Notes: generated by a model not told the origin, from the sequence alone. A stretch of DNA of 64,000 bases from a virus (IMGVR_UViG_3300025913_000018); one strand, 5' to 3'; positions 9,863 to 34,763 are shown, numbered from the stretch's first letter. Made by a program: numbers and translations.

Positions 9863-9892
9863 GTAACGAACGACCTCCGCCCCTTTACACTC
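9863..9892 (-). promoter_or_regulatory. conserved 30-bp promoter-like motif, instance b
   Basis: Plus strand gtaacgaacga-N11-ttacactc. Confidence 0.6.
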
Positions 9893-10391
9893 CCGGAGCG
9901 AAGCCCTGGCTCTCGACGAAGGACGCCAGGGTCTCGATGGCCGTTTCCAGCTCGATCTTCCGGATCGCCTCGTCCACGATCTTCCGGTGGTCGAAGCACC
10001 AGACGACGGAGTCCAGATCTCGAAGGGAGACCATCTTGAAGTCCTTCGCGTCGTCGCCCGCGACGGGGAGCTGGTTCGGATCTTTCGGAGACCCGAGGAA
10101 GGCGACCGAGACAACGTGCTGACGAGGATCTCGGGCCGGGTCCGAGTACACGCCGATGAGGCGCATCTTCTCGCCGTCGATGTCCAGGTTGGTCTCCTCC
10201 TTCGCCTCCCGAAGGGCAGCCGTCTCGACCGCCTCCCCGTAGTCCACGAAGCCCCCTGGAAGGGCGAGACCCAGGGGCGGGTTCCGACGCTCGATCACGA
10301 CGATCTTCGAGTCGAGGATCTCCGGAGCCCGGTAGAGGATCACGAGATCCACCGCGAGGGACGGGCACTTGTATTCGGCTTTGGAAGTCAT
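9885..10391 (-). CDS. NUDIX hydrolase
   Basis: Nudix box LPGGFVDYGEAVETAALREAKEETNL (GX5EX7REUXEEXGU). Start MTSKAEYK overlaps the upstream stop as ATGA. Confidence 0.8.
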   Translation of the reverse strand: MTSKAEYKCPSLAVDLVILYRAPEILDSKIVVIERRNPPLGLALPGGFVDYGEAVETAALREAKEETNLDIDGEKMRLIGVYSDPARDPRQHVVSVAFLGSPKDPNQLPVAGDDAKDFKMVSLRDLDSVVWCFDHRKIVDEAIRKIELETAIETLASFVESQGFAPGV

Positions 10392-10615
10392 GACGGCCAC
10401 TCGGCCCCTTCTTGGGTATCGGTCCAGTACAATCGAGTCGTGAAGGTGTCGTCGTCCCCGTCGAAACGAGGAGAGAACGCCGCGCACACCTTCACGCGAC
10501 GTCCGGTGTTCTTCTGGAAGTACTGACCGTACACCCCTGGCTCGTAGACCCACTCGCCTCCGTGGGTACGCCGAAGACGCTCGATCAGCCGATCTCGTTT
10601 TCGACGAGAGGTCAT
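10388..10615 (-). CDS. small hypothetical protein
   Basis: MTSRRKRDRLIERLRR...; ATGA overlap. Confidence 0.4.
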   Translation of the reverse strand: MTSRRKRDRLIERLRRTHGGEWVYEPGVYGQYFQKNTGRRVKVCAAFSPRFDGDDDTFTTRLYWTDTQEGAEWPS

Positions 10616-11097
10616 GTCCAGGTCGTGAGGTACGTAGAGCGACCGAGGCGGCCGATGTTCTTCATCCACTCGGCGACGCGCTGAAGAGCCACGATCTCCT
10701 CCCCGACAGGCAGGATGAACTTCCGACGGAGACCGTCCCACACGTACCAGGACGTCGGCTCTGTCCACCACCACCAGCTGTCCCAGAAACCCTCCTCAGA
10801 TCTCTCGGACACGAAGACCTTGAACGCGTTCACCTCATCGATCGGATTGGCGAACGCGATCGCCCCGAGCGAGACGAGATCGAGCTTCGGGTTGTAGTGA
10901 GATCCGGAGGGAAGACGAATCACCTCCTGGTCCCCGAACTTCTCGCGTTCCCACGCCCGAACGTCCACGAGTTCCTCGTTCTGGATCTTGAAGAACGAGT
11001 AGCCGACGAACTTCACGAAGGTGTCGATGTCCTCGTCGGTGAGGAAGCAACGCATGTCCTCCTTCTTGAAGTAGTAGTAACCGCCCTCAGCTCCCAT
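10612..11097 (-). CDS. hypothetical protein
   Basis: 161-aa ORF with GAGGAG SD. Confidence 0.5.
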   Translation of the reverse strand: MGAEGGYYYFKKEDMRCFLTDEDIDTFVKFVGYSFFKIQNEELVDVRAWEREKFGDQEVIRLPSGSHYNPKLDLVSLGAIAFANPIDEVNAFKVFVSERSEEGFWDSWWWWTEPTSWYVWDGLRRKFILPVGEEIVALQRVAEWMKNIGRLGRSTYLTTWT

Positions 11098-11422
11098 TTC
11101 TCAACTCCTCGAAGCGACGGATCAGCTCCATGACCCGGGAGTCCCCAAGGGAGCGAAAACACGTTCGCGAGGAAGCATAATGAGAGTCGGCGAACGATCG
11201 ACCCTCTTGATACTTCAGGACCCCATTCTCGTCATCGGAATCCTCGTATCCGTCGCACGCCCAGACCATGTCTCTGGAGTCCTGGAGGGAAAGATTCCTG
11301 CCGCACACTCGACACGGAGGTGGTTGCCGGACCTTGTACGTCTCCCGAACCACTTCGATCAGCTCATCGTGGGTGAGCTGATCGATCGGTCGCGTGAAGA
11401 GCATATCAGGAATCGTAGACAT
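11087..11422 (-). CDS. zinc-ribbon hypothetical protein
   Basis: CRVCGRNL...C motifs; 111 aa. Confidence 0.45.
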   Translation of the reverse strand: MSTIPDMLFTRPIDQLTHDELIEVVRETYKVRQPPPCRVCGRNLSLQDSRDMVWACDGYEDSDDENGVLKYQEGRSFADSHYASSRTCFRSLGDSRVMELIRRFEELRNGS

Positions 11423-11430
11423 GGGAAACC

Positions 11431-11964
11431 TCAGAACAGGGGAAGGTGGCCGAGTGAGATCACGTCTTCTCGTCGAGTTCCCTCGGTGAAGACTGCGAGA
11501 GTGGCGACGTGGGTCGCTCCGATCTTCGTCACCAACGCCTTCAACGCGTCGAGAGTTCCGCCCGACGACACGACATCGTCCACGAAGGCGACGCGCTTTC
11601 CTCGGAGGCGCTCCACGTCCTCTTCGGAGAGATAGAGTGTCTGGACCCGATCCGTAGTGATGCTCTTCACCTCGACCGAAACAGTCTCCCCCATGTATGG
11701 CTTCCGCTCCTTCCGAGCAACGAAGGTAGGGAGTCCGCTCTCACGTCCAAGAACGTGGAGAAGAGCTTGAGCCTTCCCGTCCGGCATGAGGAGCGCTTTC
11801 ACTCCAGACGGGAGCTTCGCTGCGAGAGCCTTACCGGCGGCCTCGGCTAGATTCCAGTCCCCGAGGATGTTGAACAGGGCCACTCGAACGCCTGGAGCTA
11901 CCTCGCGAATCGGCAGGAGCCGTATTGCGGGGCCGATCTCTATCTCGACGAATTCTTCGCCCAT
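11431..11964 (-). CDS. type I phosphoribosyltransferase (APRT/HGPRT-like)
   Basis: PRPP-binding motif VAFVDDVVSSGGTL; ~178 aa from MGEEFVEIEIG with GGGCGTAAGC SD. Confidence 0.7.
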   Translation of the reverse strand: MGEEFVEIEIGPAIRLLPIREVAPGVRVALFNILGDWNLAEAAGKALAAKLPSGVKALLMPDGKAQALLHVLGRESGLPTFVARKERKPYMGETVSVEVKSITTDRVQTLYLSEEDVERLRGKRVAFVDDVVSSGGTLDALKALVTKIGATHVATLAVFTEGTRREDVISLGHLPLF

Positions 11965-11972
11965 AGGTTTGC

Positions 11973-12248
11973 TTACGCCCTTCGATCCAAGTGCTCGCGC
12001 TTCGCCAATACGGCCTTCACGCGCGCTTCGTAGTCGAGGGCCTCCTTCCAACAGATCATGAAATCGGCCCGATCTTTCTCCGACATTCCAACGCACTGGG
12101 AGAAGTGTTCCCCGCAAGAGTCGCAGACGTTCCCGTTCGAAGCCCGCCGAGCAATCTTCAGAACTTGGAGGAGACGTTGAGTCGAGAGCTTCGCCAACTT
12201 CTCGTCGGGAAGGGGGTGGGGGGCCTTGAACCAACTCGCCCAAGTCAT
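11973..12248 (-). CDS. small hypothetical protein with CDSCGEH motif
   Basis: MTWASWFKAPHPLP...; ATGA coupling. Confidence 0.4.
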   Translation of the reverse strand: MTWASWFKAPHPLPDEKLAKLSTQRLLQVLKIARRASNGNVCDSCGEHFSQCVGMSEKDRADFMICWKEALDYEARVKAVLAKREHLDRRA

Positions 12249-12880
12249 GGCTCGTACCTCGATCGATCGAAACCTTCGGGAGGAGACCAACCCTCGGCGA
12301 GGGCCTCCTTCATCCACTCTCGGAGCGGAGGCTTTCGCCCGAGGAAGGTGTAGAGCCGGCACAGGTCGTCGTAGTCGTCCCGAAGGGCGAGAAGCAGTCC
12401 TTCGAGATCTTCGAGCTTCTTCGCCTCGTCGCCGTTCGTGGCGTACCAAACCGAACCTTCAGCGTCGACCGCCCACCACTCCGTGGGGTCCTCTCTCCCG
12501 GAGAAGATACCTCCCCCACCTCGAAGAGGCAGAGGCGGGAAACCCAGGAACTCCACCATCCATGGGAAGTTGTCTCGGTCCCTGACCTCGACCATGCAGC
12601 GGCCTTCGACGATCATCGGGTTCTGAGTCGCCACCCCCCAGAACACCGGCTGGTACCCTTCCGGAAACTTGCCGGCCTTCCTCGCCTCGAAGAGAACGTG
12701 ATCGAGGCGAGCCTTCTCCCGAGCGCGCTCGGCGTCGATCATGCGCATTCGGATCTCGTGAGCCTCGATGTTCTTCCGCTCGACCTCGATACGGGCCTCG
12801 AAGCCTGCGCGCTCCTTCTCCGTGAACGTGGCGAGACGTTCCTCGGGAGAAGCCTTCTTGTAGCGGTTGAACGCGGTCAT
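12245..12880 (-). CDS. hypothetical protein, paralogue family A member 1
   Basis: 211 aa, similar to 13682..14368: KAGKFPEGYQPVFW vs AEGKFPADERFIPTF; C-terminus LGRKPPLREWMKEALAEGWSPPEGF vs LGRKPPLPEWIRTALQKGWTPPSDF. Confidence 0.55.
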   Translation of the reverse strand: MTAFNRYKKASPEERLATFTEKERAGFEARIEVERKNIEAHEIRMRMIDAERAREKARLDHVLFEARKAGKFPEGYQPVFWGVATQNPMIVEGRCMVEVRDRDNFPWMVEFLGFPPLPLRGGGGIFSGREDPTEWWAVDAEGSVWYATNGDEAKKLEDLEGLLLALRDDYDDLCRLYTFLGRKPPLREWMKEALAEGWSPPEGFDRSRYEP

Positions 12881-13158
12881 AGGTTGTCTTGGTAGTAGGC
12901 TTCCGCCCTACTGCATTCGAGCCACTTCACGATGGATTGGCAGAAGTGGTAACCGCAGGAGAAGGCTAGGAAAGCGATCAGCCCTCGTTCCGGAACGCAG
13001 AACGCTGTCGCCACCCCGCTCACGAGAAACGTCGCGAAGGCGATGTACGTTTGTCGTCGGAAGCGGCGAACGTCGGAGAGGGAGTACGTCCGGGTGTACA
13101 TCCGCGGGGGAGCCGCGATCATCTGGGACTGAGAGTGAGGAGGACGACTCATGCTCAT
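12877..13158 (-). CDS. small membrane protein (2 predicted TM helices)
   Basis: Hydrophobic stretches IAFATFLVSGVATAFCV and LIAFLAFSCGY. Confidence 0.45.
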   Translation of the reverse strand: MSMSRPPHSQSQMIAAPPRMYTRTYSLSDVRRFRRQTYIAFATFLVSGVATAFCVPERGLIAFLAFSCGYHFCQSIVKWLECSRAEAYYQDNL

Positions 13159-13685
13159 GTTGAGGGACTTTCGTACTTGGCCTTCAGCCGTTCGTACTCC
13201 CTACGCTCTTTCGACTCGTCTTCCTGAGCCAAGCGCTCGATGTAAGAGTTCGTCTCACTGAGAAACAGTGAGATTCCTTCTTGCACTTTCTCCATGCGAG
13301 TCTCGTACTCCGCCAGGCGTTTCTCGTAGTCCTCGGTATGGACCTTCCGAACGGTCTCGATCTTCAGGCACGCGTCGTCGTGGTAGGGGACCGCAGTCAC
13401 CCGAGTCGACTCGAAGATCTTCTTCAGATCGAGGATGTCCTCAGCCCGGTGAGGGGTACGTTCCAGGACGAAGGCGATGATGTCGGAGAGAAGATTGCCG
13501 TGGTCGTACTCGTCCAGAAGGTTGACCTCTTCGTAGGTCTCTTCGGGCGGGGACGTGGACATCCCCGGAAGGACCGGGGCGCCGAATCGCCGAAGCTTCG
13601 GGATGGAGAGCCACACCCTCCGGGCCTCCTCCCAAGAGGCGCGGGTCTCCACCCCCAAGGCCAAGATCTCTTCCTTCGTCCTCAT
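13155..13685 (-). CDS. hypothetical protein
   Basis: Trimmed to MRTKEEILALGVE (ATG 13683-13685), overlapping the stop of 13682..14368 as ATGA. Confidence 0.45.
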   Translation of the reverse strand: MRTKEEILALGVETRASWEEARRVWLSIPKLRRFGAPVLPGMSTSPPEETYEEVNLLDEYDHGNLLSDIIAFVLERTPHRAEDILDLKKIFESTRVTAVPYHDDACLKIETVRKVHTEDYEKRLAEYETRMEKVQEGISLFLSETNSYIERLAQEDESKERREYERLKAKYESPST

Positions 13686-14368
13686 ACGGTCTCCTCGAAG
13701 TCTTCGCGCCGGAAGTCGGAAGGCGGGGTCCACCCCTTCTGAAGGGCTGTTCGAATCCACTCGGGAAGCGGCGGCTTCCTCCCGAGAAGTTCGTGGATGG
13801 TCTGGAGATCCGAGAGATCTTCCTTCGCCTCCGCGAGTAGCTGGTCGCTCGTGACTCGGCCGAGGCTACCACCATGGGCCGAGTCCATCCAGCAGACTCC
13901 GGCCGAATCGATCGCCCAACACGTCGGGATATCCCAACCGGTGTGCCAGACGGAACCCGTTCCGCGAAGCGGGAGCACCGGAAGGCCTTCCCACTCTTCT
14001 TCGATGTAGAACTCGGTGAGACGTTCTCGACTTCCCTTCGGACTCTCGATCCGAACGAGATGGTCGACCATGTAGGGGTCTCTCCCGTCCTTGTAGCGGA
14101 AGGTCGGGATGAAGCGCTCGTCCGCGGGAAACTTCCCCTCAGCGCGGGCCTTCGCGGTGATCTCGCTTTCTACCCGCGCGAGCCTCTCGTTCTCCCGAGC
14201 GAGGTTCTCATCGCTGAGGCGAGCGCGCCGCAAGCTGTCGTCGGCGCGACGCGTGGCGATGTCCTGGATCTCGGTCCTCAGCTCCGGGGAAGCCTTCTGA
14301 CGCTCCTCGTAGGAGAGGGAGATGAACGCGTCGAGCTTCTCGATTTCTTCTTCGGTGGGGGCGCTCAT
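13682..14368 (-). CDS. hypothetical protein, paralogue family A member 2
   Basis: 228 aa; see 12245..12880. Confidence 0.55.
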   Translation of the reverse strand: MSAPTEEEIEKLDAFISLSYEERQKASPELRTEIQDIATRRADDSLRRARLSDENLARENERLARVESEITAKARAEGKFPADERFIPTFRYKDGRDPYMVDHLVRIESPKGSRERLTEFYIEEEWEGLPVLPLRGTGSVWHTGWDIPTCWAIDSAGVCWMDSAHGGSLGRVTSDQLLAEAKEDLSDLQTIHELLGRKPPLPEWIRTALQKGWTPPSDFRREDFEETV

Positions 14369-14370
14369 GA

Positions 14371-14577
14371 TCAGATGCTCTGGATGAAGTCGAGGATGGA
14401 GTTCCTCTCGTCTTGGGTCGGGCTTGGACTGTTACTCGCTCGGCGCGCGTAGAACGTCGCCCAAGCGCCCGGCATGTCCCCCGAGCAAGCGAGACGAACG
14501 AAGAGACGTCGATCCTCACCGTTCGGGAGGAAGACTCGAAGGAGCTGATGCCCGGGGTGAAGCTTCAGATCGTTCAC
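14371..14577 (-). CDS. small hypothetical protein
   Basis: 68-aa ORF. Confidence 0.35.
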   Translation of the reverse strand: MNDLKLHPGHQLLRVFLPNGEDRRLFVRLACSGDMPGAWATFYARRASNSPSPTQDERNSILDFIQSI

Positions 14578-14855: not shown

Positions 14856-14856
14856 G

Positions 14857-20371: not shown

Positions 20372-20770
20372 TCAGCGACCGCGATCGCCCCGACGGCCGC
20401 GCGAGTCGTCACCCCGATCGTCTCGACGACCACCCCCGCCTCCGCCGCCGAAGTCGTCACGACGACCTCCACCGAAGCTCGTGGGACGGCCGCCTCCCCC
20501 TCCTCCGCCACCGGCCGAGCGCTCCAGGGCCTCGTTCACGTTGATGGTGCGGGGCGGGTTGCCCATGACGCTTCCATCCATCGCCTTGATCGCCTTCGCG
20601 GCCTGATCGTCGGTCGCGTACGTGACGAACCCGAACCCGCGCGAACGACCCGTCTCCCGATCGGAGATCACCTTGGCATCGCGGACGTCGCCGAAGGAGA
20701 CAAACGCCTCCTTCAGATCCTCGTCGTTGACGCCCCACGGAAGACCACCCACGAACAGCTTCTTTCCCAT
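20372..20770 (-). CDS. glycine-rich RNA-binding protein with RRM domain
   Basis: RNP-2 KLFVGGLPW and RNP-1 RGFGFVTY, followed by GGGGGGGG / RGG-like tail. Confidence 0.8.
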   Translation of the reverse strand: MGKKLFVGGLPWGVNDEDLKEAFVSFGDVRDAKVISDRETGRSRGFGFVTYATDDQAAKAIKAMDGSVMGNPPRTINVNEALERSAGGGGGGGGRPTSFGGGRRDDFGGGGGGGRRDDRGDDSRGRRGDRGR

Positions 20771-23644: not shown

Positions 23645-23988
23645 CTACGGACGGAACTCGTTCGGAACCTTCAGGAGGTCCAATTCTTCGGCGGAGAGGC
23701 CCGCCTCGCGAAGCTTCTTGGCGAGGGCCAGCTTCCGCGTCTCTTCTTCGGTCGGGGCCGAGACCTTCACGGCTTCGCCCATAACGATGCGAAGGTCTCG
23801 ATTCTTGTCGGCGATGACCTGGATCTTCACGACCTTCGCCCCAGGGCGATCGCGAACGAGAAGAGCAGCGGAATCCTCCGACCAGTAGAAGAGATCCGTC
23901 GACCCTTCCTTTTCGCCCTCCACGGCGAAGACGGTGTAGATCTTGCCTGGAAGGATGGCGGGAATCTTGAACGGTTTCGGATTCTTCA
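23645..23988 (-). CDS. hypothetical protein
   Basis: MKNPKPFKIPAILPGKIYTVF...; ATGA overlap. Confidence 0.45.
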
Positions 23989-24477
23989 TGACGACTTTAC
24001 TCCCTGTAGGACTTGCTTCTCTTCTGAGTCGGAGAGCGTCCACAACCCCATCATACCCTTCGCCGGAACGGGTATGGAGAGGGGTCGGACGTCCTCCAAA
24101 AGCCACCCTACCGGCCCGAGCCACCACGGATCTGAGTCGAGGGTGAGAAGCCGCGCTCGAAGCGCCTCGTTCGGGTCCGAGTCGCTGAAGAGGTCGAGGA
24201 TCCCCCGGTCCCCCGCCATACGAATCTCCCGCCTCCCGTCCCGAAGGTCCAACGCGCCAACGACGATTGCCGTAGCCACGACGGCCGACCTCGGGAGGGG
24301 TTCGGGTATCTCGACGCCAGGAGGGAGCTTCCAGGCGTCCTTACGGGCCGCCCCCGCGTGGATAGCGAACCTCTCTCCAAGAAGGTTCTCCGGAGGGAGC
24401 CAGGTCCGGTTCTCCACGAACTTTCCGTAGAGGGCTACGCCGCTCGCGTAGGGCTGCCAAAGGGTGAGGGCTCTCAT
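23986..24477 (-). CDS. ASCH domain protein
   Basis: MRALTLWQPYASGVALYGKFVENRTW matches the ASCH/PUA-like N-terminal signature. Confidence 0.65.
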   Translation of the reverse strand: MRALTLWQPYASGVALYGKFVENRTWLPPENLLGERFAIHAGAARKDAWKLPPGVEIPEPLPRSAVVATAIVVGALDLRDGRREIRMAGDRGILDLFSDSDPNEALRARLLTLDSDPWWLGPVGWLLEDVRPLSIPVPAKGMMGLWTLSDSEEKQVLQGVKSS

Positions 24478-24715: not shown

Positions 24716-25006
24716 GGGGAAAGCCGCGACGCTCGCCTTCAGGTCGTCCTCTCGACGACGAAGCTCCGAGAACGCGTCGAGGACGGCCCCATCGGGAGTC
24801 GAACTGATTCGACCGAACTCTCCGGAGAGACCCTCGACCGTACATGTCCAGTTGTCCCGACGGACGGTGGTAGAGATCCTCTCCGTCCACTTCTCCAGAA
24901 GGAGCTTCGTGTGGGATGTCAACGACACGCGCCACACCCTCGGCTTCTCGCAGGTGAACCGGAGGCCTCGAACGATCATGTCCTTCGACTCGGAGGGGTC
25001 AGTCAT
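24710..25006 (-). CDS. hypothetical protein
   Basis: 98-aa ORF. Confidence 0.45.
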   Translation of the reverse strand: MTDPSESKDMIVRGLRFTCEKPRVWRVSLTSHTKLLLEKWTERISTTVRRDNWTCTVEGLSGEFGRISSTPDGAVLDAFSELRRREDDLKASVAAFPA

Positions 25007-25984
25007 GGTTCTCCTCGCTCGAACAGAGCGCTTTCGCCATCGCCGGGGTGATGAACGAGAGGTCGATCGGATTGTCCAATCTCTCGTTGATCACTTCCGC
25101 TACTTCCTTCGGGGAAAGGCTGCTGCCTCTCTCCCGATTCGATCCGCCGATGATGTCCGAGCCTCCCCACGGGGCGTCATCCTCGGCGCTGAGGGCTCCG
25201 TACAGGTCCTGGACCGGGAAGTCGACGTACCGCGAACGCCGACCGATCGTATAGACGTTCCGACCGTCGGGGCGCCGAGCGACGAGGCTCACGTACCCGT
25301 CGAGCTTCCCTTCCGCGAAGAGAGCGAATCGGGCGTCATTCCCTCCCGTCTCTTCGATCACCTTGAAACGAGGCGACTCGTAGAGGACGTGGTGTCGAGT
25401 GTCCAGGTTTCGGAGACCGGCCGAACCCATGAACGCTTGGGTGAGGTTGTTCATCACCGACTGGATACAGTTTCGGATTACCGACTCGTTCGCAGCCGCG
25501 AGCGCGCCCGACTTTCGGAGGTCCGAGTACGGGCTAAAGACCCAGGTGTGCTGCTGGAGAACCCGTTCATCGAGGCTCATCGGATAGGCGCCGCCGGTGA
25601 TGTCGAGGCGATCGCTCAGTTCGAGGAAGCGGTTGATGATGGGGTGGCTCTGGACGCCGGTGAAGCTCTTCCACCGCGAGATCAACCAGACCGCGAAGGA
25701 GGTGTCCTGGTCCGGATCATTCACGTAGATCGTCGCGTTCCCGTCGAACCGCTCCATGAGGCCGCCCTTGATCGCGAACATGACCTGCTTCGCGGTGCTC
25801 ATGGTCGCTTCTCGGATGCACGAGTCGTGGTGGTCGAAGTTGACGTGGAGCGTACGCTCGTTCCAGTTCGGACCTCCGGTCACGATCCCGTCGAGCGCGA
25901 TCGAACACTTCGGCGCAGAGGCCACGAAGGCCTCCCAGGTCATGACGTGACGCGGGAGGACGACGAGATTGATGTTGTCGTTCA
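24999..25984 (-). CDS. hypothetical protein (328 aa)
   Basis: MNDNINLVVLPRHVMTWEAF...; contains VNFDHHD. No confident family. Confidence 0.5.
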
Positions 25985-26353
25985 TTCGTGGGCTTTGATG
26001 GAGCTCATGAGGTCGATCGCGAGCTTGTAGCTCTCGCACTCCGGGTTTACGCCCGAGACAATCGTGTACGAGCCTTCGCCGAAGAGAAGGTGGAGGTGCC
26101 ACCCCTCATTCTCCTCAGTCGCCCCGTCGTCTCTCCAGGAAGCCTCCGACTCTGGGTCCCGGTACACGAGCCACTCCGAAGGGATCTTCACGTCCCGATC
26201 GAAGTGACGAAGAGGCTCGGTGTCCTCTTCCGAGTCCACTCCCGCGATCTCCGCCTCGGGCCAGGTCAAGGAGATCAGCTTCAGGAGAAAGCGCGCCTTC
26301 GAGGGCGTCGGCTTCGATTCCAGGATGTGGTCGTGTCCTCCGATCTCCATCAC
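25982..26353 (-). CDS. acidic hypothetical protein
   Basis: 123 aa. Confidence 0.5.
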   Translation of the reverse strand: MMEIGGHDHILESKPTPSKARFLLKLISLTWPEAEIAGVDSEEDTEPLRHFDRDVKIPSEWLVYRDPESEASWRDDGATEENEGWHLHLLFGEGSYTIVSGVNPECESYKLAIDLMSSIKAHE

Positions 26354-28672: not shown

Positions 28673-28673
28673 C

Positions 28674-29044
28674 CTACTTCTTTCCGCACACGATACAGGT
28701 CCCGAAGCTGAAGTCGGAGACGCCCGTAGGGGTCTCGTCTCCCAGCTCCTTCCCGCACGAGTAGCACTTCTCAGGGTTCACCGGTGGGATCACGAGGCTG
28801 AGCCGAAGCTCAGAGATCTCTTTCTCAGTCGAGGCTCCGCGATCGAGGGCTTCGAGGAACTGGCGGATCCTCTCCCGATCTCTCTTCAACCGATCGACGA
28901 GAGTCGACACAATCGGATAGCTCCCCTCGTGAAGACGAGCGCGAGCTTCCTCTTCGGTCGAAGGGAAGAGCATCGCCATGAGGAGACTCTCCGAGAACCG
29001 AATCGGATCCGAGTCCAAGGCCGCTTTCTCGGAGCGCTTCATCG
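28674..29044 (-). CDS. hypothetical protein with C-terminal CYSCG...CIVCG zinc ribbon
   Basis: MKRSEKAALDSDPIRF... Confidence 0.45.
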
Positions 29045-29548
29045 TCGACTCTTCCTCGTCTCGGGGTCCCAGCGTCTCTCGTTTTCCGGGACCCATCGGT
29101 ACTTCGGGAAGAGGTCCACCGCGTTGTACCGCCCCTCTTCGAGACCGAGAAGTCCGTCAGAAGCGGAGACGGACTCCCCGTTCCTGAAGTGGAAGCGAAG
29201 CTCCAGCACCCCCAACATCCCGAGCGCGAGCCACATCAGGACGTCGTGTACGTCGCCCATCTCCAAGTCTGGGACCAACCTCTTCACCTCGGAGGCATAG
29301 AAGTGAGTCTCAGGGGCCAGCCCCTGATCGAACTTCGCTTCGAGGAGAGCGTTGTAGAGGCGCTCGTGCTTCGAGGCTTCGCCCCAAACCTCTCGAATGA
29401 ACTTCAAGGGAGGGCTCACCGGAGCCGGAGGCAGGGAAAGAGAGCGAGCTTCCGGAGAGCCAGAGTACCTCTCTTGAACGCAGTACCAACACGCACGAGT
29501 TCGTATGTGTAGGTGATTGTGTTTCTTGCAGAGTTTCCTACTGGCCAT
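29039..29548 (-). CDS. hypothetical protein
   Basis: MASRKLCKKHNHLHIRTRACWYCVQE... Confidence 0.45.
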   Translation of the reverse strand: MASRKLCKKHNHLHIRTRACWYCVQERYSGSPEARSLSLPPAPVSPPLKFIREVWGEASKHERLYNALLEAKFDQGLAPETHFYASEVKRLVPDLEMGDVHDVLMWLALGMLGVLELRFHFRNGESVSASDGLLGLEEGRYNAVDLFPKYRWVPENERRWDPETRKSRR

Positions 29549-30039
29549 CAGGGTACCTGATTTGACCTCTCGACGAGAATCTCTTCGCGGACCCTCATGA
29601 GAAGCTTTCCAAGATGGTTCTCTCCGATCCCTCCGGCGTTCTCGTCCACGCCCCAGAACCGATCTCCCCAAGTAGTTCCCTCGATCAACTCCGCGTCTCC
29701 CGTGGAGATGAGTAGGGCTCGAAGGGTCGGGTACTTGAACTTCTGGACGAGGAGGGCGTACATGACCTTCACTCGAATGTCGTCCCAGTCGTCGCGTCGC
29801 GGAACCCGGCGACCGGCCTTCTTCGACTCGGAAGCGGTCATGGTCTGGAACGACTCGGTGAGCTGAACGCGATTCGGGATCTTCGAGTCGATCTTTGCCG
29901 CTTGGAAGGCGTTCTCGACCGAGGGCATCTTGAAGGACATCTTCTCCCCGTCGTGGGTGAAGCTGAGTACGACGGGGATCTGATAGAAGTTCGACAGGAA
30001 GCGATAGCTCCCTGAGAAACGACGGATGACCTCAGCCAT
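29548..30039 (-). CDS. NADAR / YbiA-like (DUF1768) N-glycosidase-family protein
   Basis: Signature RFLSNFY...E..FQA.K...GTTWGDRFWG; 163 aa. Confidence 0.75.
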   Translation of the reverse strand: MAEVIRRFSGSYRFLSNFYQIPVVLSFTHDGEKMSFKMPSVENAFQAAKIDSKIPNRVQLTESFQTMTASESKKAGRRVPRRDDWDDIRVKVMYALLVQKFKYPTLRALLISTGDAELIEGTTWGDRFWGVDENAGGIGENHLGKLLMRVREEILVERSNQVP

Positions 30040-30054
30040 CCCCTCGTTACTCCC

Positions 30055-30540: not shown

Positions 30541-30584
30541 GGGTAGGGCTCCTCCCTGAGGGACCGTACCCGAAGATCACCGGC

Positions 30585-30789
30585 TCACTCGTCCTTCAGG
30601 TCTTCGATCTCCCCGAGCGGACGACCGAACATGCTCTTCTCCAGGTCGTGTAGCGCCAGGGCCGCCTCCGAGGCGCGACGTTCCCCACGCCGATAGCCGC
30701 GCCGGTATCCGGCCATGTAGCCCACCCCGGCCCCCGAGAGCATCATCACCCAGACGAAAATGTAGTACCCGATGGTCATTCTTCGGACT
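30585..30789 (-). CDS. small membrane protein
   Basis: MTIGYYIFVWVMMLSGAGVGYMAGY TM helix. Confidence 0.4.
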
Positions 30790-31279
30790 TGATGTTGTAG
30801 AGGCGAAGTAGGGTGGAGGCGGTTCGACGAAGGAGGTACCGCCGAACGGGCTGCCTCATCGCTGGGTGAGGGGCTGCGGCTCCCGAAGCCCACCTCTTCA
30901 CGGTCGGACTACTTACCGAGAGGGCGTTCCCCAACTCTCCCGGCACCATGTCCATGACTTCGAGCGCGCATCGAACAACCCCCGAGAACTGAGCGTCGTC
31001 GGAGAGATCGGACTTCATCACTAGGTCTCGAAGATCCATGAGCCTCTGAGCCTTCGGTTCCGCCTTCAACCAAGCGGTCTTCTGAGGTTCGAGAGCCGCT
31101 TCGATCTCCTCGACCTTTGCCCGATCCATCGCGTGGTTGTCACACTCCAGGTTCGAGCAGCGAAGGACTTCGATGGTCTCGGGAACCGTCGTCGGAACCC
31201 CGGGAATCGCCTCCCATGGGATCCCCTTCGCGCTTCTCATCGAAAACTCGGAACCGCACACGCTACATCGAAGGGTCAT
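30776..31279 (-). CDS. zinc-ribbon + XRE-like HTH protein
   Basis: N-terminal CSVCG...C; C-terminal LSVSSPTVKRWASGAAAPHP HTH, paralogous to the next gene. Confidence 0.5.
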   Translation of the reverse strand: MTLRCSVCGSEFSMRSAKGIPWEAIPGVPTTVPETIEVLRCSNLECDNHAMDRAKVEEIEAALEPQKTAWLKAEPKAQRLMDLRDLVMKSDLSDDAQFSGVVRCALEVMDMVPGELGNALSVSSPTVKRWASGAAAPHPAMRQPVRRYLLRRTASTLLRLYNIKSEE

Positions 31280-31533
31280 AGAACGACCTCGATCTTCTTC
31301 AGGAGGAACCTTCGGAGCCCCTCTCTCATCCCAGGGGCAGGAGAGGTTACCCCGTTCTTCCACCGAGCTGCGGTGGGTCGACTGATCCTCATCCCTGAGG
31401 CGAAGTCCCCCTCCGACATCCCCAGAACGTCGCAAGCTCGTCGGATGGTTTCCGCGAACGAGGCGTCGTTTTGGAGGTCAACGTTCCGGACGTAGGAGCG
31501 AAACGTCTCCAGATCGGAAGGGGACGAGACCAC
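31276..31533 (-). CDS. small XRE-like HTH protein
   Basis: MRISRPTAARWKNGVTSPAPGMREGLRRFLL. Confidence 0.5.
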   Translation of the reverse strand: MVSSPSDLETFRSYVRNVDLQNDASFAETIRRACDVLGMSEGDFASGMRISRPTAARWKNGVTSPAPGMREGLRRFLLKKIEVVL

Positions 31534-31534
31534 G

Positions 31535-32461
31535 TCAGTGATCGCTCATCATGACGCCGAACCCGCTGTTCGGCACGAACATCGTCCGAGTCCCGGTGCT
31601 CTGGAGGACCGAGCTGAGCGCTTCGATCCGACGATACTCCAAGACCGACGGGGTCATCGAGGCGGAGATCGTCTGGTTCGCGTAAGCGGTCGCGTCCGCT
31701 TCGGCACGTGTCGTGTAGGCGGCCGTGTCCGCGACGATTCTCTGGGCCGTGGCGTGACCGTTCGCCTCGGTCTGAACTCGGTTCGCTTCAGCCTGAGCCG
31801 TGAGAAGAGCCTGCTGAGCGCGAACGGTCTCCTGACGTTGGTTCTGGACGGCTGCGATCGCGGCGTCGAGAGAGTCCGGAAGATCCGTCCCCTGTAGGAG
31901 GATGTTCTCCACGACGACCGCATTCGTCGGAACGTTTCGACTCGACAGAGCCTCTTCGAGACGAGAGTGGACGAGGTTCTCCATCATCGTCTGGAGCCGT
32001 GGGCGCTCGTCCACCAGCTCGATCGCTGTGAAGGTCGAGGCGGCGTCTCGGATCGCAGTGCGGACGATCGGATGTACGATCGTGTCCGCGTACGACTCTC
32101 CGTAGTACCGGTAGATCTGAGGCGCCGTCGTCGCGTTGAGATGGAACTGGACCGTCGCGCTGAGGATCACTTCCAGCTGGTCGTGGGAGAGGACGTGGAT
32201 CGCGTCTCCGCGGGCGATCGTGCTCTCCGGGGCTCCATCCTGAGAAGTGGTCGTTCCGCTCGTCCCCATCTCGTAGGCCTGGGTCCGAGTCGACATGTGG
32301 ATGACGTTCATCCACATGCTCGTGAAGTGGTAGCCCTCGGGATAGATCCACGGCTGGGTCTCGCCCCAATCGACCCCGACCCCGACCTCGCCGGGATTGA
32401 TAGTCTCGGAACACCCGATCGAGAACGCCGACGCCAACAGGAACATCAGAACACGAGTCAT
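31535..32461 (-). CDS. SPFH/band-7 (prohibitin/HflKC-like) lipoprotein
   Basis: Lipobox MTRVLMFLLASAFSIGC; SPFH-like core and Ala/Gln-rich coiled-coil tail. Confidence 0.65.
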   Translation of the reverse strand: MTRVLMFLLASAFSIGCSETINPGEVGVGVDWGETQPWIYPEGYHFTSMWMNVIHMSTRTQAYEMGTSGTTTSQDGAPESTIARGDAIHVLSHDQLEVILSATVQFHLNATTAPQIYRYYGESYADTIVHPIVRTAIRDAASTFTAIELVDERPRLQTMMENLVHSRLEEALSSRNVPTNAVVVENILLQGTDLPDSLDAAIAAVQNQRQETVRAQQALLTAQAEANRVQTEANGHATAQRIVADTAAYTTRAEADATAYANQTISASMTPSVLEYRRIEALSSVLQSTGTRTMFVPNSGFGVMMSDH

Positions 32462-32658
32462 CGCTCACCCTCCTAGATACAGAAACTACTCTTCTCGCTC
32501 TTCCAATTCGTGACGGCCGTCTTTCGACGTCGGCCACGCACCGCACAATAGGCACTGTCCAGTCTCCTCAGAGACCTTCCCTCGACAGGCCAGTATCACC
32601 ATCACGAGCCGGTCTCGGGAGATGATCTTCACCTCCTCGACGGTCTCGTCTTTCGGAA

Positions 32659-32844
32659 TCACTTCTTCCGGTCAGGGACGCCGAAGCCGTTGTCGTCCAC
32701 ATGCTGATCGGCGTGAGGCGCTCGTCCCGGAACCGGAGGTCCCCACGGGGATCGTCGATCGATGAAGGGGATGTAATCTCCCTCCGAGGTGTAGTTGCTG
32801 CGTTCGTGGTGAGGAATCGTAGCCGGGTCTCGCTTCTCAGTCAT
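32659..32844 (-). CDS. small hypothetical protein
   Basis: 61 aa. Confidence 0.3.
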   Translation of the reverse strand: MTEKRDPATIPHHERSNYTSEGDYIPFIDRRSPWGPPVPGRAPHADQHVDDNGFGVPDRKK

Positions 32845-33065
32845 CGCCCCTCGTTTCGAAGATCACGCTTCGACAGTTCGACCAACAACTCATCCGTCCC
32901 CGCCGACTTCAAACCCTCGACGGTCCGAAGCTCTTCCTCAACCCGAACCTTCACGATCCGCTCGTCCCTCCACGCGAGGTACCGACGAGTGAGGTAGGAC
33001 AGGAACACCCCGCTCGGGACGCCGAGAAGGAATCCGAAGAGGATGAAGATTTCAAGGCGAACCAT
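32841..33065 (-). CDS. small membrane protein
   Basis: N-terminal TM MVRLEIFILFGFLLGVPSGVFL; GGCGTAAGG SD. Confidence 0.5.
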   Translation of the reverse strand: MVRLEIFILFGFLLGVPSGVFLSYLTRRYLAWRDERIVKVRVEEELRTVEGLKSAGTDELLVELSKRDLRNEGR

Positions 33066-33074
33066 TTCTTGACC

Positions 33075-33572
33075 TTACGCCCGGTTCTTCGTCAAGAGCA
33101 ACGCGCGCTCAGTTCCGACGCGCGTCCCCAGGAGGATGATGGCCTTCTCGACGAAGGCGCCTCGGAATCGGAGACGCCATCGAAGGGGCCACGTCTCGCT
33201 CAGGATGTCGAGTAGGACAGGCGTAGGGAGACGGCTGGCGTCGATCTGGAGAAGCATCCCGTCGATCACCTGGACTTCGTCCGGAGAATGATCGTCGATC
33301 CAACAGATAGCAGAGATCCCCGCTTCCTCGGCGGCGTCGCCTTCCTTGTCGTACCAGGCCGCCCAGGTGGCCTGACGGTACGGGTCGGCCCGCCCTTCGT
33401 TCGGATACGCGCAAGGCGTCCTAGGGGCGATACAGGGCTTCGTAACACCATCCTCGGGCGGGCCCTCAGCGCATACGCACGCGGGGTTCGAGGCCATGCA
33501 GGCTTCGCCCGGATCTTCGATCCCGCAGTCGAGGCACCAGGCCCCCGGCCACCCACTCCACCGATGGGTCAT
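33075..33572 (-). CDS. Cys-rich hypothetical protein
   Basis: 165 aa. Confidence 0.5.
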   Translation of the reverse strand: MTHRWSGWPGAWCLDCGIEDPGEACMASNPACVCAEGPPEDGVTKPCIAPRTPCAYPNEGRADPYRQATWAAWYDKEGDAAEEAGISAICWIDDHSPDEVQVIDGMLLQIDASRLPTPVLLDILSETWPLRWRLRFRGAFVEKAIILLGTRVGTERALLLTKNRA

Positions 33573-33850
33573 TCTCCCCGGTAGCCCGCGTAGTGACCCG
33601 AGGGCGCCCAGAAGTTCCGACCGAGAACCGGAAGGCGAATCACCCTCCCGCCGAGCAGAGGCTGGAACCGACCCGCCTCCTCTTCCCCGATCGCCTGGGT
33701 GAGGCGGTCCATGTCGATCGAGTAGAGTTCGGGCAGGTCCGTACCCCGAACGTGTTCGAGAGGACCGATCGCCCCGTCCCAGATGAAGACGGCGTTGTGT
33801 TCCCTCGCGAGAGCGAAGAGGGCGCGGAGATCGGGGTCGACGTAGGTCAT
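33569..33850 (-). CDS. hypothetical protein
   Basis: 93 aa with GGGCGTAAGG SD. Confidence 0.5.
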   Translation of the reverse strand: MTYVDPDLRALFALAREHNAVFIWDGAIGPLEHVRGTDLPELYSIDMDRLTQAIGEEEAGRFQPLLGGRVIRLPVLGRNFWAPSGHYAGYRGE

Positions 33851-33869
33851 AGGACCCTTACGCCCAAGT

Positions 33870-34763
33870 TCACGGAAACTTTCTCGTCGGGGCTCTCGAT
33901 AGGCCCGGCGGACGGATCAACTCGTCCGTGAGCTTCGAGGGGAGATCGTTCGTCTTCCCGAGGAGCGACCCGAGCCCCAAACAGAGCGCCGCGAGGGTGT
34001 CTACGTCGCCTCCGAGGGCGACCGCCTGTACGAGAAGCTCGTGGAGGGTCTCGTGCCGTAGGAGGAGCCCGAAGGCGGCCTCAACGATCATCCTCCCGCT
34101 CGTAGAACCGACCCTCCATTGGACCGGATCCCAGAACCGAGGGTCGGCCCATCCGAGGTGGGACATTGTGGTCGTGAGACCGGTACGAGTCCCGTTGTAG
34201 GCCGCCAGCGCCACGGCCACCGCCGCGTCGATCGAGTCCGGATGGTGGTGGGTAGCGCGAGCCTGAGCTATCGCCGCCGTCATGACGTGATACCCGGCGA
34301 ACTTCTTCTCACCGGTGAATGGGCTGATCAAGCCGACCGGAATCGCTCGCATCGCCGCCCCGCACGTGTCCTTCAGGTTCGTCTCGATTCCTTCGCGGCA
34401 TCTCGCCATGAGGTCGAGGCCTGGTGTCACGCTTCGAGCGGCCTCGGGGAGAACGGCTCTCATCCGGCCGCCATAGCCGGGGGCGGGGTCGAACTTGTAC
34501 TCGGCGACGAACTCGTCCGCGAAGTCCACCGACCTCCACCAGAACTCCGTCTTCATGACCGCGAGCGTCATCTGGGTGTCGTCGGTCGTTCCTCCCGGTC
34601 GATGGTTCCGATCGAGCCCGTGGACTCGGTAGGTGAGCCCGTCGTTGTTCTCCTTCACGAAGGAGAGAGGACGCATCTCGAACCCGGCCCCGTAAGCGTC
34701 GCCCACCATGAAGGCGAGAAGCCACTCGGAAACGGTCTCGACCTCGGGATAGTGCTCAGACAT
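33870..34763 (-). CDS. ADP-ribosylglycohydrolase (ARH/DraG family)
   Basis: N-terminal GDAYGAGFE, GGTTDDTQMTLAV, C-terminal GGDVDTLAALCLGLGSLLG; 297 aa. Confidence 0.8.
   Translation of the reverse strand: MSEHYPEVETVSEWLLAFMVGDAYGAGFEMRPLSFVKENNDGLTYRVHGLDRNHRPGGTTDDTQMTLAVMKTEFWWRSVDFADEFVAEYKFDPAPGYGGRMRAVLPEAARSVTPGLDLMARCREGIETNLKDTCGAAMRAIPVGLISPFTGEKKFAGYHVMTAAIAQARATHHHPDSIDAAVAVALAAYNGTRTGLTTTMSHLGWADPRFWDPVQWRVGSTSGRMIVEAAFGLLLRHETLHELLVQAVALGGDVDTLAALCLGLGSLLGKTNDLPSKLTDELIRPPGLSRAPTRKFP

What the first reader, a model, noticed from the sequence alone, without database searches (positions are those of the whole stretch)
9885..34763. ADP-ribose / NAD-derived signal processing toolkit: NADAR, ADP-ribosylglycohydrolase, NUDIX and phosphoribosyltransferase
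Four dispersed genes act on ADP-ribose-type bonds:
- NADAR/YbiA-like protein, 29548..30039; this family reverses guanine ADP-ribosylation of DNA by DarT-type toxins.
- ARH/DraG-family glycohydrolase, 33870..34763.
- NUDIX hydrolase, 9885..10391.
- Type-I phosphoribosyltransferase, 11431..11964.

In a phage-like context this combination is most simply read as counter-defence. The genes could remove ADP-ribose marks from DNA or protein, degrade ADPR-derived immune signals (Thoeris/DSR-type), or rebuild nucleotide pools after NAD depletion.
Basis: partly seen in the sequence, partly recalled or inferred. Interest (0 to 1): 0.7.

Follow-up and report, generated by a model that had tools for sequence, protein, structure and literature searches.

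The report
ADP-ribose-processing genes in a giant soil phage
An uncultivated soil phage with a genome of about 473 kb carries four intact genes, three that remove or break down ADP-ribose and one that salvages adenine; this gene set is already known from large phages, so the case is real but largely ordinary.

Summary
**Observation: confirmed.** All four genes are real, at the stated coordinates, and keep their catalytic motifs.
- **NADAR** (29548-30039): Glu-type, core domain only, 46% identical to the NADAR of a T5-like coliphage.
- **ARH** (33870-34763): two-metal ARH fold, AlphaFold2 pLDDT 92.9.
- **Nudix** (9885-10391): stand-alone, on the NadM/NrtR branch whose members bind or cleave ADP-ribose.
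- **PRT** (11431-11964): an adenine phosphoribosyltransferase, 55% identical to Thermus APRT. This is purine salvage and does not act on ADP-ribose bonds.

**Context.** The window is a one-directional arm of about 134 small ORFs, mostly without known relatives. It comes from a probable jumbo phage; identical proteins lie on a 472,929-bp soil-metagenome contig.

**Interpretation: partly supported.**
- In the window the genes are dispersed, with about 48 ORFs between the first and the last.
- No NAD+ reconstitution (NARP), Macro, RyR or ADP-ribosyltransferase (ART) genes were found in the window.
- In a second jumbo-phage lineage, the ARH orthologue sits between NadM (NMNAT-Nudix) and NadV (NAMPT). 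In one contig a NADAR follows.
- In the closest relative, ARH lies 0.6 kb from the same PRT.
- So a functional neighbourhood exists: ADP-ribose removal, then ADP-ribose recycling, then NAD+/AMP resynthesis.

**Novelty.** The concept is published: Iyer et al. 2022, the anti-DarT NADAR AdfN (2025), and NARP1-3. This is a new member of a known kind. ARH is the rare and functionally open piece.

The parts
29548..30039 (-). NADAR (YbiA-like) ADP-ribosyl N-glycosidase, 163 aa. Core domain only, with Glu at the subfamily-defining position.
   Evidence: Family hits: Pfam PF08719 2.6e-25; PHROG 1017 1.7e-38; E. coli YbiA 2b3w 5e-14. Homologues occur in 491 phage records. It is 46% identical to the Tequintavirus NADAR. 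Residues E42, K49, R82, W85, E120, D126 and W129 are invariant in that alignment. I mapped them by eye onto the P. nicotianae NADAR residues E43, K50, R79, W89, E125, D130 and W133 of PMC11543638.
33870..34763 (-). ARH/DraG-superfamily ADP-ribosyl glycohydrolase, 297 aa, with a two-metal active site.
   Evidence: Pfam PF03747 3.9e-28. The motifs GDAYGAGFE, TDDTQM, GAAMR, THHHP and GGDVDT are conserved against DraG and ARH3 and across 66 homologues. AlphaFold2 pLDDT is 92.9; Foldseek gives probability 1.0 to ARH3 and DraG with TM 0.65-0.72. Orthologues at 48-54% identity were found only on large, phage-like metagenome contigs.
9885..10391 (-). Stand-alone Nudix hydrolase, 168 aa, on the NadM-Nudix/NrtR (ADP-ribose-binding) branch. 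Predicted ADP-ribose pyrophosphatase.
   Evidence: Pfam PF00293 3.5e-20. The Nudix box reads G47-x5-E53-x7-R61-E62-A-K-E65-E66-T-N-L, read from the sequence. The best NCBIfam hits are NadM bifunctional NMNAT/Nudix models and the ADPR-responsive repressor NtrR. PDB hits: 2yyh at 50% identity, plus NadM structures 2qjt and 2qjo. The identical protein lies on a 472,929-bp contig.
11431..11964 (-). Type-I phosphoribosyltransferase of the adenine-PRT subfamily, 177 aa. Purine salvage.
   Evidence: NCBIfam PRK07322 scores 189 bits against a cut-off of 143. It is 55% identical over 170 aa to Thermus APRT 6fsp/5zgo, 2e-49. The PRPP motif VAFVDDVVSSGGT is present. Homologues at 64-84% identity occur, some on other large, mostly ORFan contigs, and at 62-65% identity in Myxococcales and Methylomirabilis.
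10388..11422 (-). Three small ORFs of 75, 161 and 111 aa that fill the space between PRT and NUDIX. The stop and start codons within the NUDIX-to-111-aa run overlap by 4, 4 and 11 nt; 8 nt separate the 111-aa ORF from the PRT.
   Evidence: JGI gene calls on L011 mapped to the window; my own ORF list. No family hits. Co-transcription is inferred only weakly, because the whole arm is packed this tightly.

Best explanation
**Setting.** The window is part of the long, one-directional accessory-gene arm of an uncultivated soil jumbo phage of about 473 kb. It holds three independent enzymes that act on ADP-ribose, plus one purine-salvage enzyme.

**Proposed mechanism.**
1. The NADAR is a core-only, Glu-type N-glycosidase. 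It most likely strips ADP-ribose from guanine bases that host DarT1-like or YarT-like transferases place on phage DNA or RNA. That would make it an orphan-antitoxin counter-defence of the AdfN kind.
2. The ARH is a two-metal glycohydrolase. It most likely removes ADP-ribose from a different linkage: protein Arg/Ser, nucleic-acid phosphate ends, or ribose-ribose O-glycosidic bonds.
3. Both reactions release free ADP-ribose.
4. The NadM-type Nudix hydrolyses ADP-ribose to AMP and ribose-5-phosphate. This detoxifies it and feeds PRPP and adenylate pools.
5. The adenine PRT converts adenine and PRPP to AMP. It belongs to nucleotide-pool maintenance, together with the divergent PurA at 60976-62328, and not to ADP-ribose chemistry.

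**Shown versus inferred.**
- Shown: family membership, intact active sites, gene order here and in relatives.
- Inferred: substrates, order of action, and the counter-defence role.
For: **Family membership and intact motifs.**

**NADAR.**
- Phage NADARs of several clades, including one from Markadamsvirinae, are experimentally anti-DarTG1 (PMC11825919).
- The window NADAR is 46% identical to a Markadamsvirinae NADAR.
- All NADAR subtypes tested so far cleave guanine-ADPr in vitro (PMC11125620).

**ARH context in relatives.**
- Five or so contigs of one jumbo-phage lineage (60-80% identical to each other) keep ARH between a NadM-like NMNAT+Nudix and a NadV/NAMPT. The NAMPT scores 613 bits in NCBIfam.
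- The block order is Mtase, cREC, RNA ligase, NadM, ARH, (His_Phos), NAMPT, (NADAR).
- In the closest relative, L018 (15 shared proteins), ARH lies 0.6 kb from the orthologous PRT, which is 78% identical.

**Published precedent.** Co-occurrence of NADAR and Nudix in large phages has been described, with the proposal that ARG (ARH) domains target macromolecular adducts (PMC9503650).
Against: - In the window the genes are separated by about 48 ORFs and show no operon-like link.
- PRT neighbours differ in two other PRT-bearing large contigs: there is no ARH or Nudix within 10 kb.
- NADAR is absent from the syntenic spot in L018.
- T4 NADAR and YbiA cleave G-ADPr in vitro but did not protect cells from DarT1 (PMC11125620), so the fold does not guarantee counter-defence.
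- YbiA-type NADARs also act on riboflavin intermediates.
- The Nudix substrate rests on subfamily resemblance only. Database names for its homologues are generic ('8-oxo-dGTP diphosphatase', 'YjhB').
- The host and its defence repertoire are unknown.
Confidence: 0.55

Rival explanations
1. The four genes are unrelated auxiliary or housekeeping genes that accumulate in any very large phage. Under this reading NADAR is a YbiA-like N-glycosidase that clears reactive riboflavin intermediates, Nudix is a nucleotide-pool sanitiser or RNA-decapping enzyme, PRT (with PurA) does purine salvage, and ARH regulates some phage or host protein. There is no common theme.
For: - The genes are dispersed over 25 kb.
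- Base rates of NADAR and Nudix in jumbo phages are high (PMC9503650).
- The NADAR's best NCBIfam hit is the riboflavin-intermediate N-glycosidase model, at 67.9 bits against a cut-off of 73.7.
- Nudix homologues carry only generic names.
- PRT neighbours vary between relatives.
Against: - ARH orthologues are repeatedly embedded in NAD+ salvage blocks and lie beside the same PRT in the closest relative.
- The Nudix groups with the ADP-ribose-binding NadM/NrtR branch.
- Divergent phage NADARs tested so far all cleave guanine-ADPr (PMC11825919, PMC11125620).
Confidence: 0.25
2. [quoted passage not shown] That would make it a second, unrelated enzyme family doing what RyDEP does.
For: - From established knowledge, ARH3 hydrolyses 1''-2' ribose-ribose bonds of poly(ADP-ribose). 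The window ARH matches ARH3 structures as well as it matches DraG.
- Its orthologues sit inside NadM-NadV modules. This parallels RyDEP, which sits next to the NARP1 operon (PMC13232231).
- That preprint states that no other enzyme is known to cleave these signals.
Against: - There is no direct evidence.
- Fold and sequence do not discriminate ARH3-like from DraG-like specificity.
- The window itself has no NAMPT or NMNAT near ARH.
- Iyer et al. argue from phyletic patterns that phage ARG (ARH) domains prefer macromolecular adducts (PMC9503650).
Confidence: 0.12
3. The ADPr enzymes serve RNA repair. ARH (and NADAR) would remove ADP-ribose from RNA ends or bases, or process ADPr by-products of NAD-dependent RNA repair, so that a phage RNA ligase can reseal host-cleaved tRNAs.
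For: - In the second lineage, ARH lies 1-3 kb downstream of an Rnl2-type RNA ligase and a cREC-like gene. L016 also has an RNA ligase within 10 kb.
- Iyer et al. describe phage RNA-repair neighbourhoods with Nudix and cREC (PMC9503650).
Against: - No RNA ligase, Tpt1/KptA, 2H or cREC was detected in the window.
- The association was seen essentially in one phage lineage plus L016.
Confidence: 0.08

Closest known systems
AdfN, the phage orphan NADAR that counters DarTG1 (T4 gp30.3, AdfN-Bas32, AdfN-Bas60; PMC11825919)
   Same: Both are stand-alone phage NADAR domains with the conserved catalytic and ADPr-binding residues. The window protein is 46% identical to a Tequintavirus (Markadamsvirinae) NADAR, the subfamily that contains AdfN-Bas32.
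   Different: - I did not verify that the Tequintavirus hit is the same protein as AdfN-Bas32.
- The window protein has Glu at the PnNADAR-E125 position. T4-type phage NADARs have His there and DarG1 has Asp.
- It lacks the N-terminal extension of DarG1.
- Host, target toxin and activity are unknown.
DraG, ARH3 and Tri1 (ARH superfamily, PF03747)
   Same: Same fold and the same two-metal acidic motifs plus the catalytic Glu.
   Different: - Only about 20% identical to the solved members.
- Far below the NCBIfam equivalog cut-offs for DraG (42 against 337) and Tri1 (17 against 490).
- It forms its own clade, found only on large, phage-like metagenome contigs.
- No partner ART was found next to it.
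NadM-type Nudix ADP-ribose pyrophosphatase domain (Synechocystis slr0787, Francisella NadM; also phage NadM/NatV) and T4 NudE
   Same: Intact Nudix box. The best family and structure matches include NadM Nudix domains and NrtR/NtrR.
   Different: It stands alone at 168 aa with no NMNAT domain. Its nearest homologues are uncharacterised small Nudix proteins of about 140-160 aa from diverse bacteria and archaea.
Thermus thermophilus adenine PRT (PDB 6FSP/5ZGO; NCBIfam PRK07322)
   Same: 55% identity over the full length, and above the family cut-off.
   Different: It is phage-encoded. The family also contains an adenine phosphopsicosyltransferase (7F06, 1.3e-34), so the sugar-phosphate donor is not certain.
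NARP2 (Nampt + Nmnat NAD+ reconstitution; 10.1101/2024.02.11.579819) and RyDEP next to NARP1 (PMC13232231)
   Same: Contigs of a second jumbo-phage lineage carry NadV plus a NadM-like gene, with the ARH orthologue between them. This resembles a signal- or adduct-cleaving enzyme placed beside a NAD+ rebuilding operon.
   Different: The window itself contains no Nampt, Nmnat, Adps, Namat, NadR, PnuC or RyR domain. ARH has not been described as part of NARP2 in the papers I read.

Membership tests
NADAR superfamily (PF08719) | Profile match above the curated cut-off | tested here: met
   90 bits against a cut-off of 35.1; PHROG 1017 at 133 bits.
NADAR superfamily (PF08719) | Catalytic and ADPr-binding residues (PnNADAR E43, K50, W89, R93, E125, D130, W133; PMC11543638) | tested here: met
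   E42, K49, W85, E120, D126 and W129 are invariant in the alignment with the T5-like and L019 NADARs. R89 is shared with the L019 NADAR but is Lys in the T5-like protein. The mapping to P. nicotianae numbering was done by eye.
DarG1-type antitoxin NADAR | N-terminal fold extension, Asp at the E125-equivalent position, and an adjacent darT1 | tested here: not met
   The protein is 163 aa with the core only, and has Glu in 'LIEGT'. The downstream ORF is an ORFan predicted to be helical, not an ART. No DarT hit appeared in the Pfam scans of the window, and PADLOC found none among ten proteins that included the ORFs on either side of NADAR.
AdfN (anti-DarT factor NADAR) | Removes ADPr from DNA during infection and rescues the phage from DarTG1 | not testable with these tools
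   Homology only: 46% identity to a Markadamsvirinae NADAR.
ARH / ADP-ribosylglycohydrolase (PF03747) | Profile match; binuclear-metal Asp/Thr motifs and the catalytic Glu | tested here: met
   99 bits against a cut-off of 26.2. D61, D62, D253, D255 and T256 are invariant in the 14-sequence alignment; all but T256 (nearly invariant) remain so across 66 homologues. E29 is nearly invariant in both.
ARH / ADP-ribosylglycohydrolase (PF03747) | All-alpha ARH fold | tested here: met
   AlphaFold2 pLDDT 92.9, pTM 0.91. Foldseek probability 1.0 to ARH3 and DraG, TM 0.65-0.72.
DraG or Tri1 orthologue | Equivalog-level score, and a partner transferase (DraT or Tre1) | tested here: not met
   TIGR02662 scores 42 against 337; NF041672 scores 17 against 490. 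No ART was detected in the window.
Nudix hydrolase, ADP-ribose pyrophosphatase (NadM-Nudix branch) | Nudix box GX5EX7REUXEEXGU | tested here: met
   G47...E53...R61 E62 A K E65 E66 T N L, read from the sequence. The only deviation is Asn in place of the penultimate Gly. Pfam scores 73 bits.
Nudix hydrolase, ADP-ribose pyrophosphatase (NadM-Nudix branch) | Specific relationship to characterised ADPR-binding or ADPR-cleaving Nudix domains | tested here: inconclusive
   The top NCBIfam hits are NadM models and NtrR, but at 34-48 bits, far below the full-length cut-offs. The best structure, 2yyh, is uncharacterised.
Adenine phosphoribosyltransferase (PRK07322 subfamily) | Score above the curated cut-off, a PRPP-binding loop, and full-length similarity to a solved APRT | tested here: met
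   189 bits against 143. 55% identity to 6fsp/5zgo. The motif VAFVDDVVSSGGT is present.
NAD+ reconstitution pathways NARP1, NARP2 and NARP3 | Adps+Namat, or Nampt+Nmnat, or NadR+PnuC encoded together | tested here: not met
   None of these families hit any of the ~134 window ORFs. The remaining ~410 kb of the genome could not be examined.
A conserved 'ADPr toolkit' cassette | Physical clustering of the genes, conserved across relatives | tested here: inconclusive
   Not clustered in the window. In relatives, ARH sits with NadM and NAMPT (and NADAR in one contig) within one lineage, and ARH sits with PRT in L018. PRT lies elsewhere in L029 and L030.

The most novel reading that the evidence does not exclude
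The phage-restricted ARH clade is placed between NadM and NadV in one jumbo-phage lineage and beside an adenine PRT in the window's lineage. [quoted passage not shown] Its ADP-ribose product would feed phage NAD+/adenylate resynthesis. That would make ARH a third, signal-destroying component of NARP2-like modules.
Probability: 0.12. Interest if true: 0.75.

Novelty: new member of a known kind. Interest (0 to 1): 0.4.

Why it matters
**If the main reading holds.**
- A soil phage of about 473 kb from an unsampled lineage carries two different ADP-ribose erasers plus an ADP-ribose-degrading Nudix.
- This adds an environmental example to the growing evidence that ADP-ribosylation and NAD+ chemistry are a central battlefield between bacteria and phages.

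**The useful new lead is comparative.**
- A phage-specific ARH clade is conserved inside NadM-NadV NAD+ salvage blocks.
- That gives a concrete, testable candidate for the still unknown role of ARH enzymes in phages.
- Possible roles include cleavage of cyclic ADPR immune signals, for which only one enzyme family (RyDEP) is so far reported.
- The cellular-type adenine PRT, shared by several large, probably phage contigs, hints at adenine recycling during infection. This has not been examined as a counter-measure to ATP- or adenine-nucleotide-degrading defences.

Tried and rejected
1. **Close relatives among sequenced phages.**
   - Megablast of 25 kb found nothing.
   - The best GenBank phage, Virus Rctr197k, shares only 2 of ~134 proteins.
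   - The contig is not in the IMG/VR collection: an exact 44-mer search found nothing.
   - Single-protein scans of viral contigs found nothing.
2. **NADAR as antitoxin of a phage-borne YarT-like ART** (the YbiA-YarT architecture of PMC11125620).
   - The ORF whose start overlaps the NADAR stop (29039-29548) is an ORFan, with 4 hits in 1.84 billion proteins.
   - Its low-confidence model (pLDDT 49.7) is mainly helical.
   - This gives no support; I rejected the idea.
3. **PRT-NUDIX as a discrete operon.**
   - No sigma-70-like promoter or intrinsic terminator was found.
   - The apparent 280-nt gap upstream of the PRT contains another plausible small ORF.
   - There is no basis for calling this stretch a separate unit.
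4. **An 'AMP-centred' module linking the PPDK_N/swivel-His pair to Nudix and APRT.**
   - The pair resembles split rifampicin-phosphotransferase/PigC-type enzymes, not PPDK, and has no PEP/pyruvate domain.
   - I dropped it as a link and record it only as a side observation.
5. **PurA as a PurZ (2-aminoadenine pathway).**
   - The PurZ model scores 38 bits against a cut-off of 300, while the PurA models score 177 bits, and the nearest structures are true PurA.
   - Not supported.
6. **PADLOC scan.** It gave only weak generic hits.
7. **Discriminating ARH3-like from DraG-like specificity by fold.** Both match equally well.
8. **Walking to phage structural genes.** The 10-kb flanks on both sides are again small ORFans, and one look-up failed.

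Full report
**1. Setting**

The window has 61% G+C. By my ORF calling it holds about 134 tightly packed ORFs, 128 of them on the minus strand. It has no tRNA genes.

Only about 15 ORFs hit any Pfam family. PHROG hits are few in the 6-37 kb stretch that I scanned.

Proteins identical to those of the window occur on soil and rhizosphere metagenome contigs:
- JGI Ga0105240_10000233, 110 kb.
- Logan SRR6056503_83821, 101 kb.
- For the PRT and the NUDIX, a contig of 472,929 bp.

The 10-kb flanks on either side of the window are more of the same small ORFans.

Megablast found no sequenced phage similar to the region. The nearest GenBank phage, Virus Rctr197k, shares 2 proteins.

I therefore read the window as part of the accessory-gene arm of a novel jumbo phage of about 473 kb. 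This is probable, not proven. The evidence is the gene density, the ORFan content, the phage-family hits, and relatives that carry phage-type genes. No structural gene was seen.

**2.

All four ORFs are at the stated coordinates. The independent JGI gene calls agree in length. Pfam scores exceed the gathering cut-offs.

*NADAR (29548-30039)*
- It aligns to E. coli YbiA, 5e-14.
- It is 46% identical to the NADAR of Escherichia phage vB_EcoS_MM-2, a Tequintavirus of the Markadamsvirinae.
- E42, K49, R82, W85, E120, D126 and W129 are invariant in that alignment. I mapped them by eye onto the ADPr-binding and catalytic residues reported for the P. nicotianae NADAR (PMC11543638).
- The subfamily-defining position carries Glu. 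T4-type phage NADARs have His there and DarG1 has Asp. The protein also lacks the DarG1 N-terminal extension.

*ARH (33870-34763)*
- It keeps GDAYGAGFE, TDDTQM, GAAMR, THHHP and GGDVDT, the metal-binding and catalytic motifs of DraG and ARH3. These are conserved across 66 homologues.
- The AlphaFold2 model is confident (pLDDT 92.9). It matches ARH3 and DraG equally well, TM 0.65-0.72. The fold is certain; the substrate class is not.
- It is no orthologue of DraG or Tri1.

*NUDIX (9885-10391)*
- The Nudix box is intact.
- Its best family matches are NadM bifunctional NMNAT/ADP-ribose pyrophosphatases and the ADPR-sensing repressor NtrR. Its best structure is the uncharacterised Aquifex 2yyh at 50% identity.
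- Its nearest homologues are stand-alone proteins of about 140-160 aa with generic names.
- ADP-ribose is the best guess for the substrate. It is not demonstrated.

*PRT (11431-11964)*
- It passes the NCBIfam cut-off for the PRK07322 adenine-PRT subfamily.
- It is 55% identical to Thermus APRT structures.
- Cellular homologues at 62-65% identity occur in Myxococcales and Methylomirabilis.
- It is a purine-salvage enzyme, not an enzyme of ADP-ribose bonds.

**3. Are the genes linked?**

*In the window: hardly.*
- NUDIX and PRT are 1 kb apart, with three small ORFs between them; most of the stop and start codons in this run overlap, and 8 nt separate the last ORF from the PRT. The whole arm is packed this way, and I found no promoter or terminator signals.
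- 37 ORFs separate PRT from NADAR, and 9 separate NADAR from ARH.
- No Macro, SLOG, RyR, ART, TIR, Sir2, Nampt, Nmnat, Adps, NadR or PnuC family hit any window ORF. A PADLOC scan of ten selected proteins gave only weak generic hits.

*In relatives: more so.*
- The ARH has a tight clade of homologues at 48-54% identity, found only on large, phage-like metagenome contigs of 28-298 kb. The next tier is bacterial, at 35-42% identity.
- In one lineage the ARH orthologue always lies between two NAD+ salvage genes. The contigs are L014 (298 kb), L017 (107 kb), L019, L020/L022/L023 (259 kb) and L024. They are 60-80% identical to each other.
  - On one side is a 304-319-aa protein whose two halves match NadM NMNAT and Nudix models.
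  - On the other is a NadV/NAMPT, 613 bits in NCBIfam.
  - The block order is Mtase, cREC, Rnl2-like RNA ligase, NadM, ARH, (histidine phosphatase), NAMPT. In L019 a NADAR follows.
- In L018 (15 shared proteins; PRT 78% identical), the PRT lies 0.6 kb upstream of ARH. NADAR is missing from its syntenic place.
- In L016, ARH is next to a calcineurin-like phosphoesterase and a large VWA protein.
- Against a fixed module: two other large contigs carry the PRT (80% and 64% identical) without ARH or Nudix within 10 kb.

The lineage with the NadM-ARH-NadV block counts as one evolutionary observation, not five.

**4. How it most likely works**

I commit to the following, with confidence about 0.55.
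- NADAR and ARH are two independent erasers of ADP-ribose adducts that host transferases place on phage or host macromolecules. NADAR acts on guanine bases. ARH acts on a different linkage.
- Both liberate free ADP-ribose.
- The Nudix cleaves that to AMP and ribose-5-phosphate.
- The adenine PRT, with the divergent PurA at 60976-62328, maintains adenylate pools.

Family membership, intact active sites and gene order are shown. Substrates and the defence context are inferred from characterised relatives:
- AdfN phage NADARs defeat DarTG1 (PMC11825919).
- All tested NADAR subtypes cleave guanine-ADPr (PMC11125620, PMC11833690).
- Iyer et al. (PMC9503650) proposed roles for ARG (ARH) and Nudix domains in phages.

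The rival readings are:
- Unrelated housekeeping genes (0.25).
- ARH as a cADPR-signal glycosidase (0.12).
- An RNA-repair role (0.08).

I tested and rejected the idea that NADAR is the antitoxin of an adjacent YarT-like toxin.

**5. Comparison with what is known, and novelty**

The idea that large phages carry NADAR, Nudix, Macro, SLOG and, rarely, ARG domains to counter NAD+/ADPr-based immunity is published. So are the frequencies that make NADAR plus Nudix unremarkable in a jumbo phage: about 48% and 45%. ARG is at about 5% (PMC9503650).

Phage NADAR counter-defence (2025), NARP1-3, and RyDEP (2026 preprint) are also known.

The present locus is therefore a new member of a known kind, in an unsampled phage lineage.

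Two details are less ordinary.
- **ARH is rare in viruses.** tblastn found 1 hit among 50,697 phage records, and BFVD holds only 14 ARH-fold proteins, mostly from giant eukaryotic viruses. Its phage-specific clade is embedded in NadM-NadV modules. I did not see that arrangement described in the papers I read. It parallels RyDEP sitting beside NARP1.
- **The cellular-type adenine PRT recurs.** It is shared among several large, probably phage contigs, and had no convincing counterpart in the phage collection.

**6. Verdict**

- Observation: confirmed.
- Interpretation: partly supported. It is right for NADAR, ARH and Nudix as ADPr-directed enzymes and plausible counter-defence. It is wrong for the PRT's chemistry. 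It is overstated as a 'toolkit' in this window. It was already anticipated in the literature.
- Interest: 0.4.
- The most novel reading not excluded, ARH as a second family of cADPR-signal glycosidases feeding NAD+ salvage, has a probability of about 0.12. It would be of high interest if true.

Noticed in passing
window 6762-7559 (-) and 7556-8968 (-): A split enzyme of the PEP-synthase/rifampicin-phosphotransferase/PigC type. One gene is a 265-aa PPDK_N ATP-grasp protein. It is followed, with overlapping stop and start codons, by a 470-aa protein. That protein's C-terminus is a PEP-utiliser swivel domain with the catalytic His ('GGELSHLSIIARE'); its N-terminal ~380 aa match nothing. Homologues of the second protein occur in Virus Rctr197k (37% identity), Caulobacter phages Seuss and phiCbK-like, and Vibrio phages, all annotated as hypothetical (PHROG 11532). 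The substrate is unknown.
   Followed up: partly
window 60976-62328 (-): A divergent adenylosuccinate synthetase: Pfam 8e-65, NCBIfam PurA 177 bits against a cut-off of 402. Its P-loop reads GDAGKG where PurA has GDEGKG, and the guanine-specificity motif reads TCLD where PurA has TKLD. The PurZ model scores only 38 bits against 300, so there is no support for a 2-aminoadenine pathway. Nucleotide specificity may nevertheless differ from PurA.
   Followed up: partly
L014 13812-15578, L016 3499-4746, L018 12416-13720: IS605-type OrfB/TnpB (Cas12f-like) genes lie within 1.5-5 kb of the ARH orthologue in three different phage lineages. In L014 there is also a Y1 transposase. This suggests a mobile or recombination-prone hotspot around ARH.
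   Followed up: no
window 20372-20770 (-): An RRM_1 RNA-binding protein (1e-21) with a long Gly/Arg/Asp-rich tail. This is an unusual gene for a phage.
   Followed up: no
window 58805-59533 (-) and 62338-63315 (-); L016 6304-9537: The window's calcineurin-like phosphoesterase is 35% identical to one that sits two genes upstream of the ARH orthologue in L016, next to an 827-aa VWA protein. The bacterial 'ARG-centric systems' of Iyer et al. 2022 also combine ARG with calcineurin-like phosphatases and vWA chaperones. By eye, the window ORF at 62338-63315 looks VWA-like, but it has no Pfam hit.
   Followed up: no
window 24999-26102 (-), 23986-24477 (-), 43897-44322 (-): These ORFs have no Pfam hit (23986-24477 matches PHROG 3193, function unknown), but they are well conserved (55-68% identity) in the related contig L018. 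They are core genes of this phage group with unknown function.
   Followed up: no
window 46610-47107 (-), 47424-48044 (-), 48013-48270 (-): An rRNA adenine dimethylase-like methyltransferase (Pfam 8e-7). By eye only, it is followed by a fragment resembling a class-II aminoacyl-tRNA-synthetase core and by a small MazG-like ORF. Neither of the last two has a family hit.
   Followed up: no
window 31535-32461 (-): An SPFH/Band-7 membrane-scaffold protein (Pfam 2.5e-23; PHROG 200 'lipoprotein') lies between NADAR and ARH.
   Followed up: no
L032 (Sinorhizobium phage Phosso, PV764938, 469 kb): This is the only record in the phage collection with a tblastn hit to the window ARH (30% identity). It is a soil jumbo phage of almost the same size as the window's source contig. 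I did not test whether the two phages are related.
   Followed up: no
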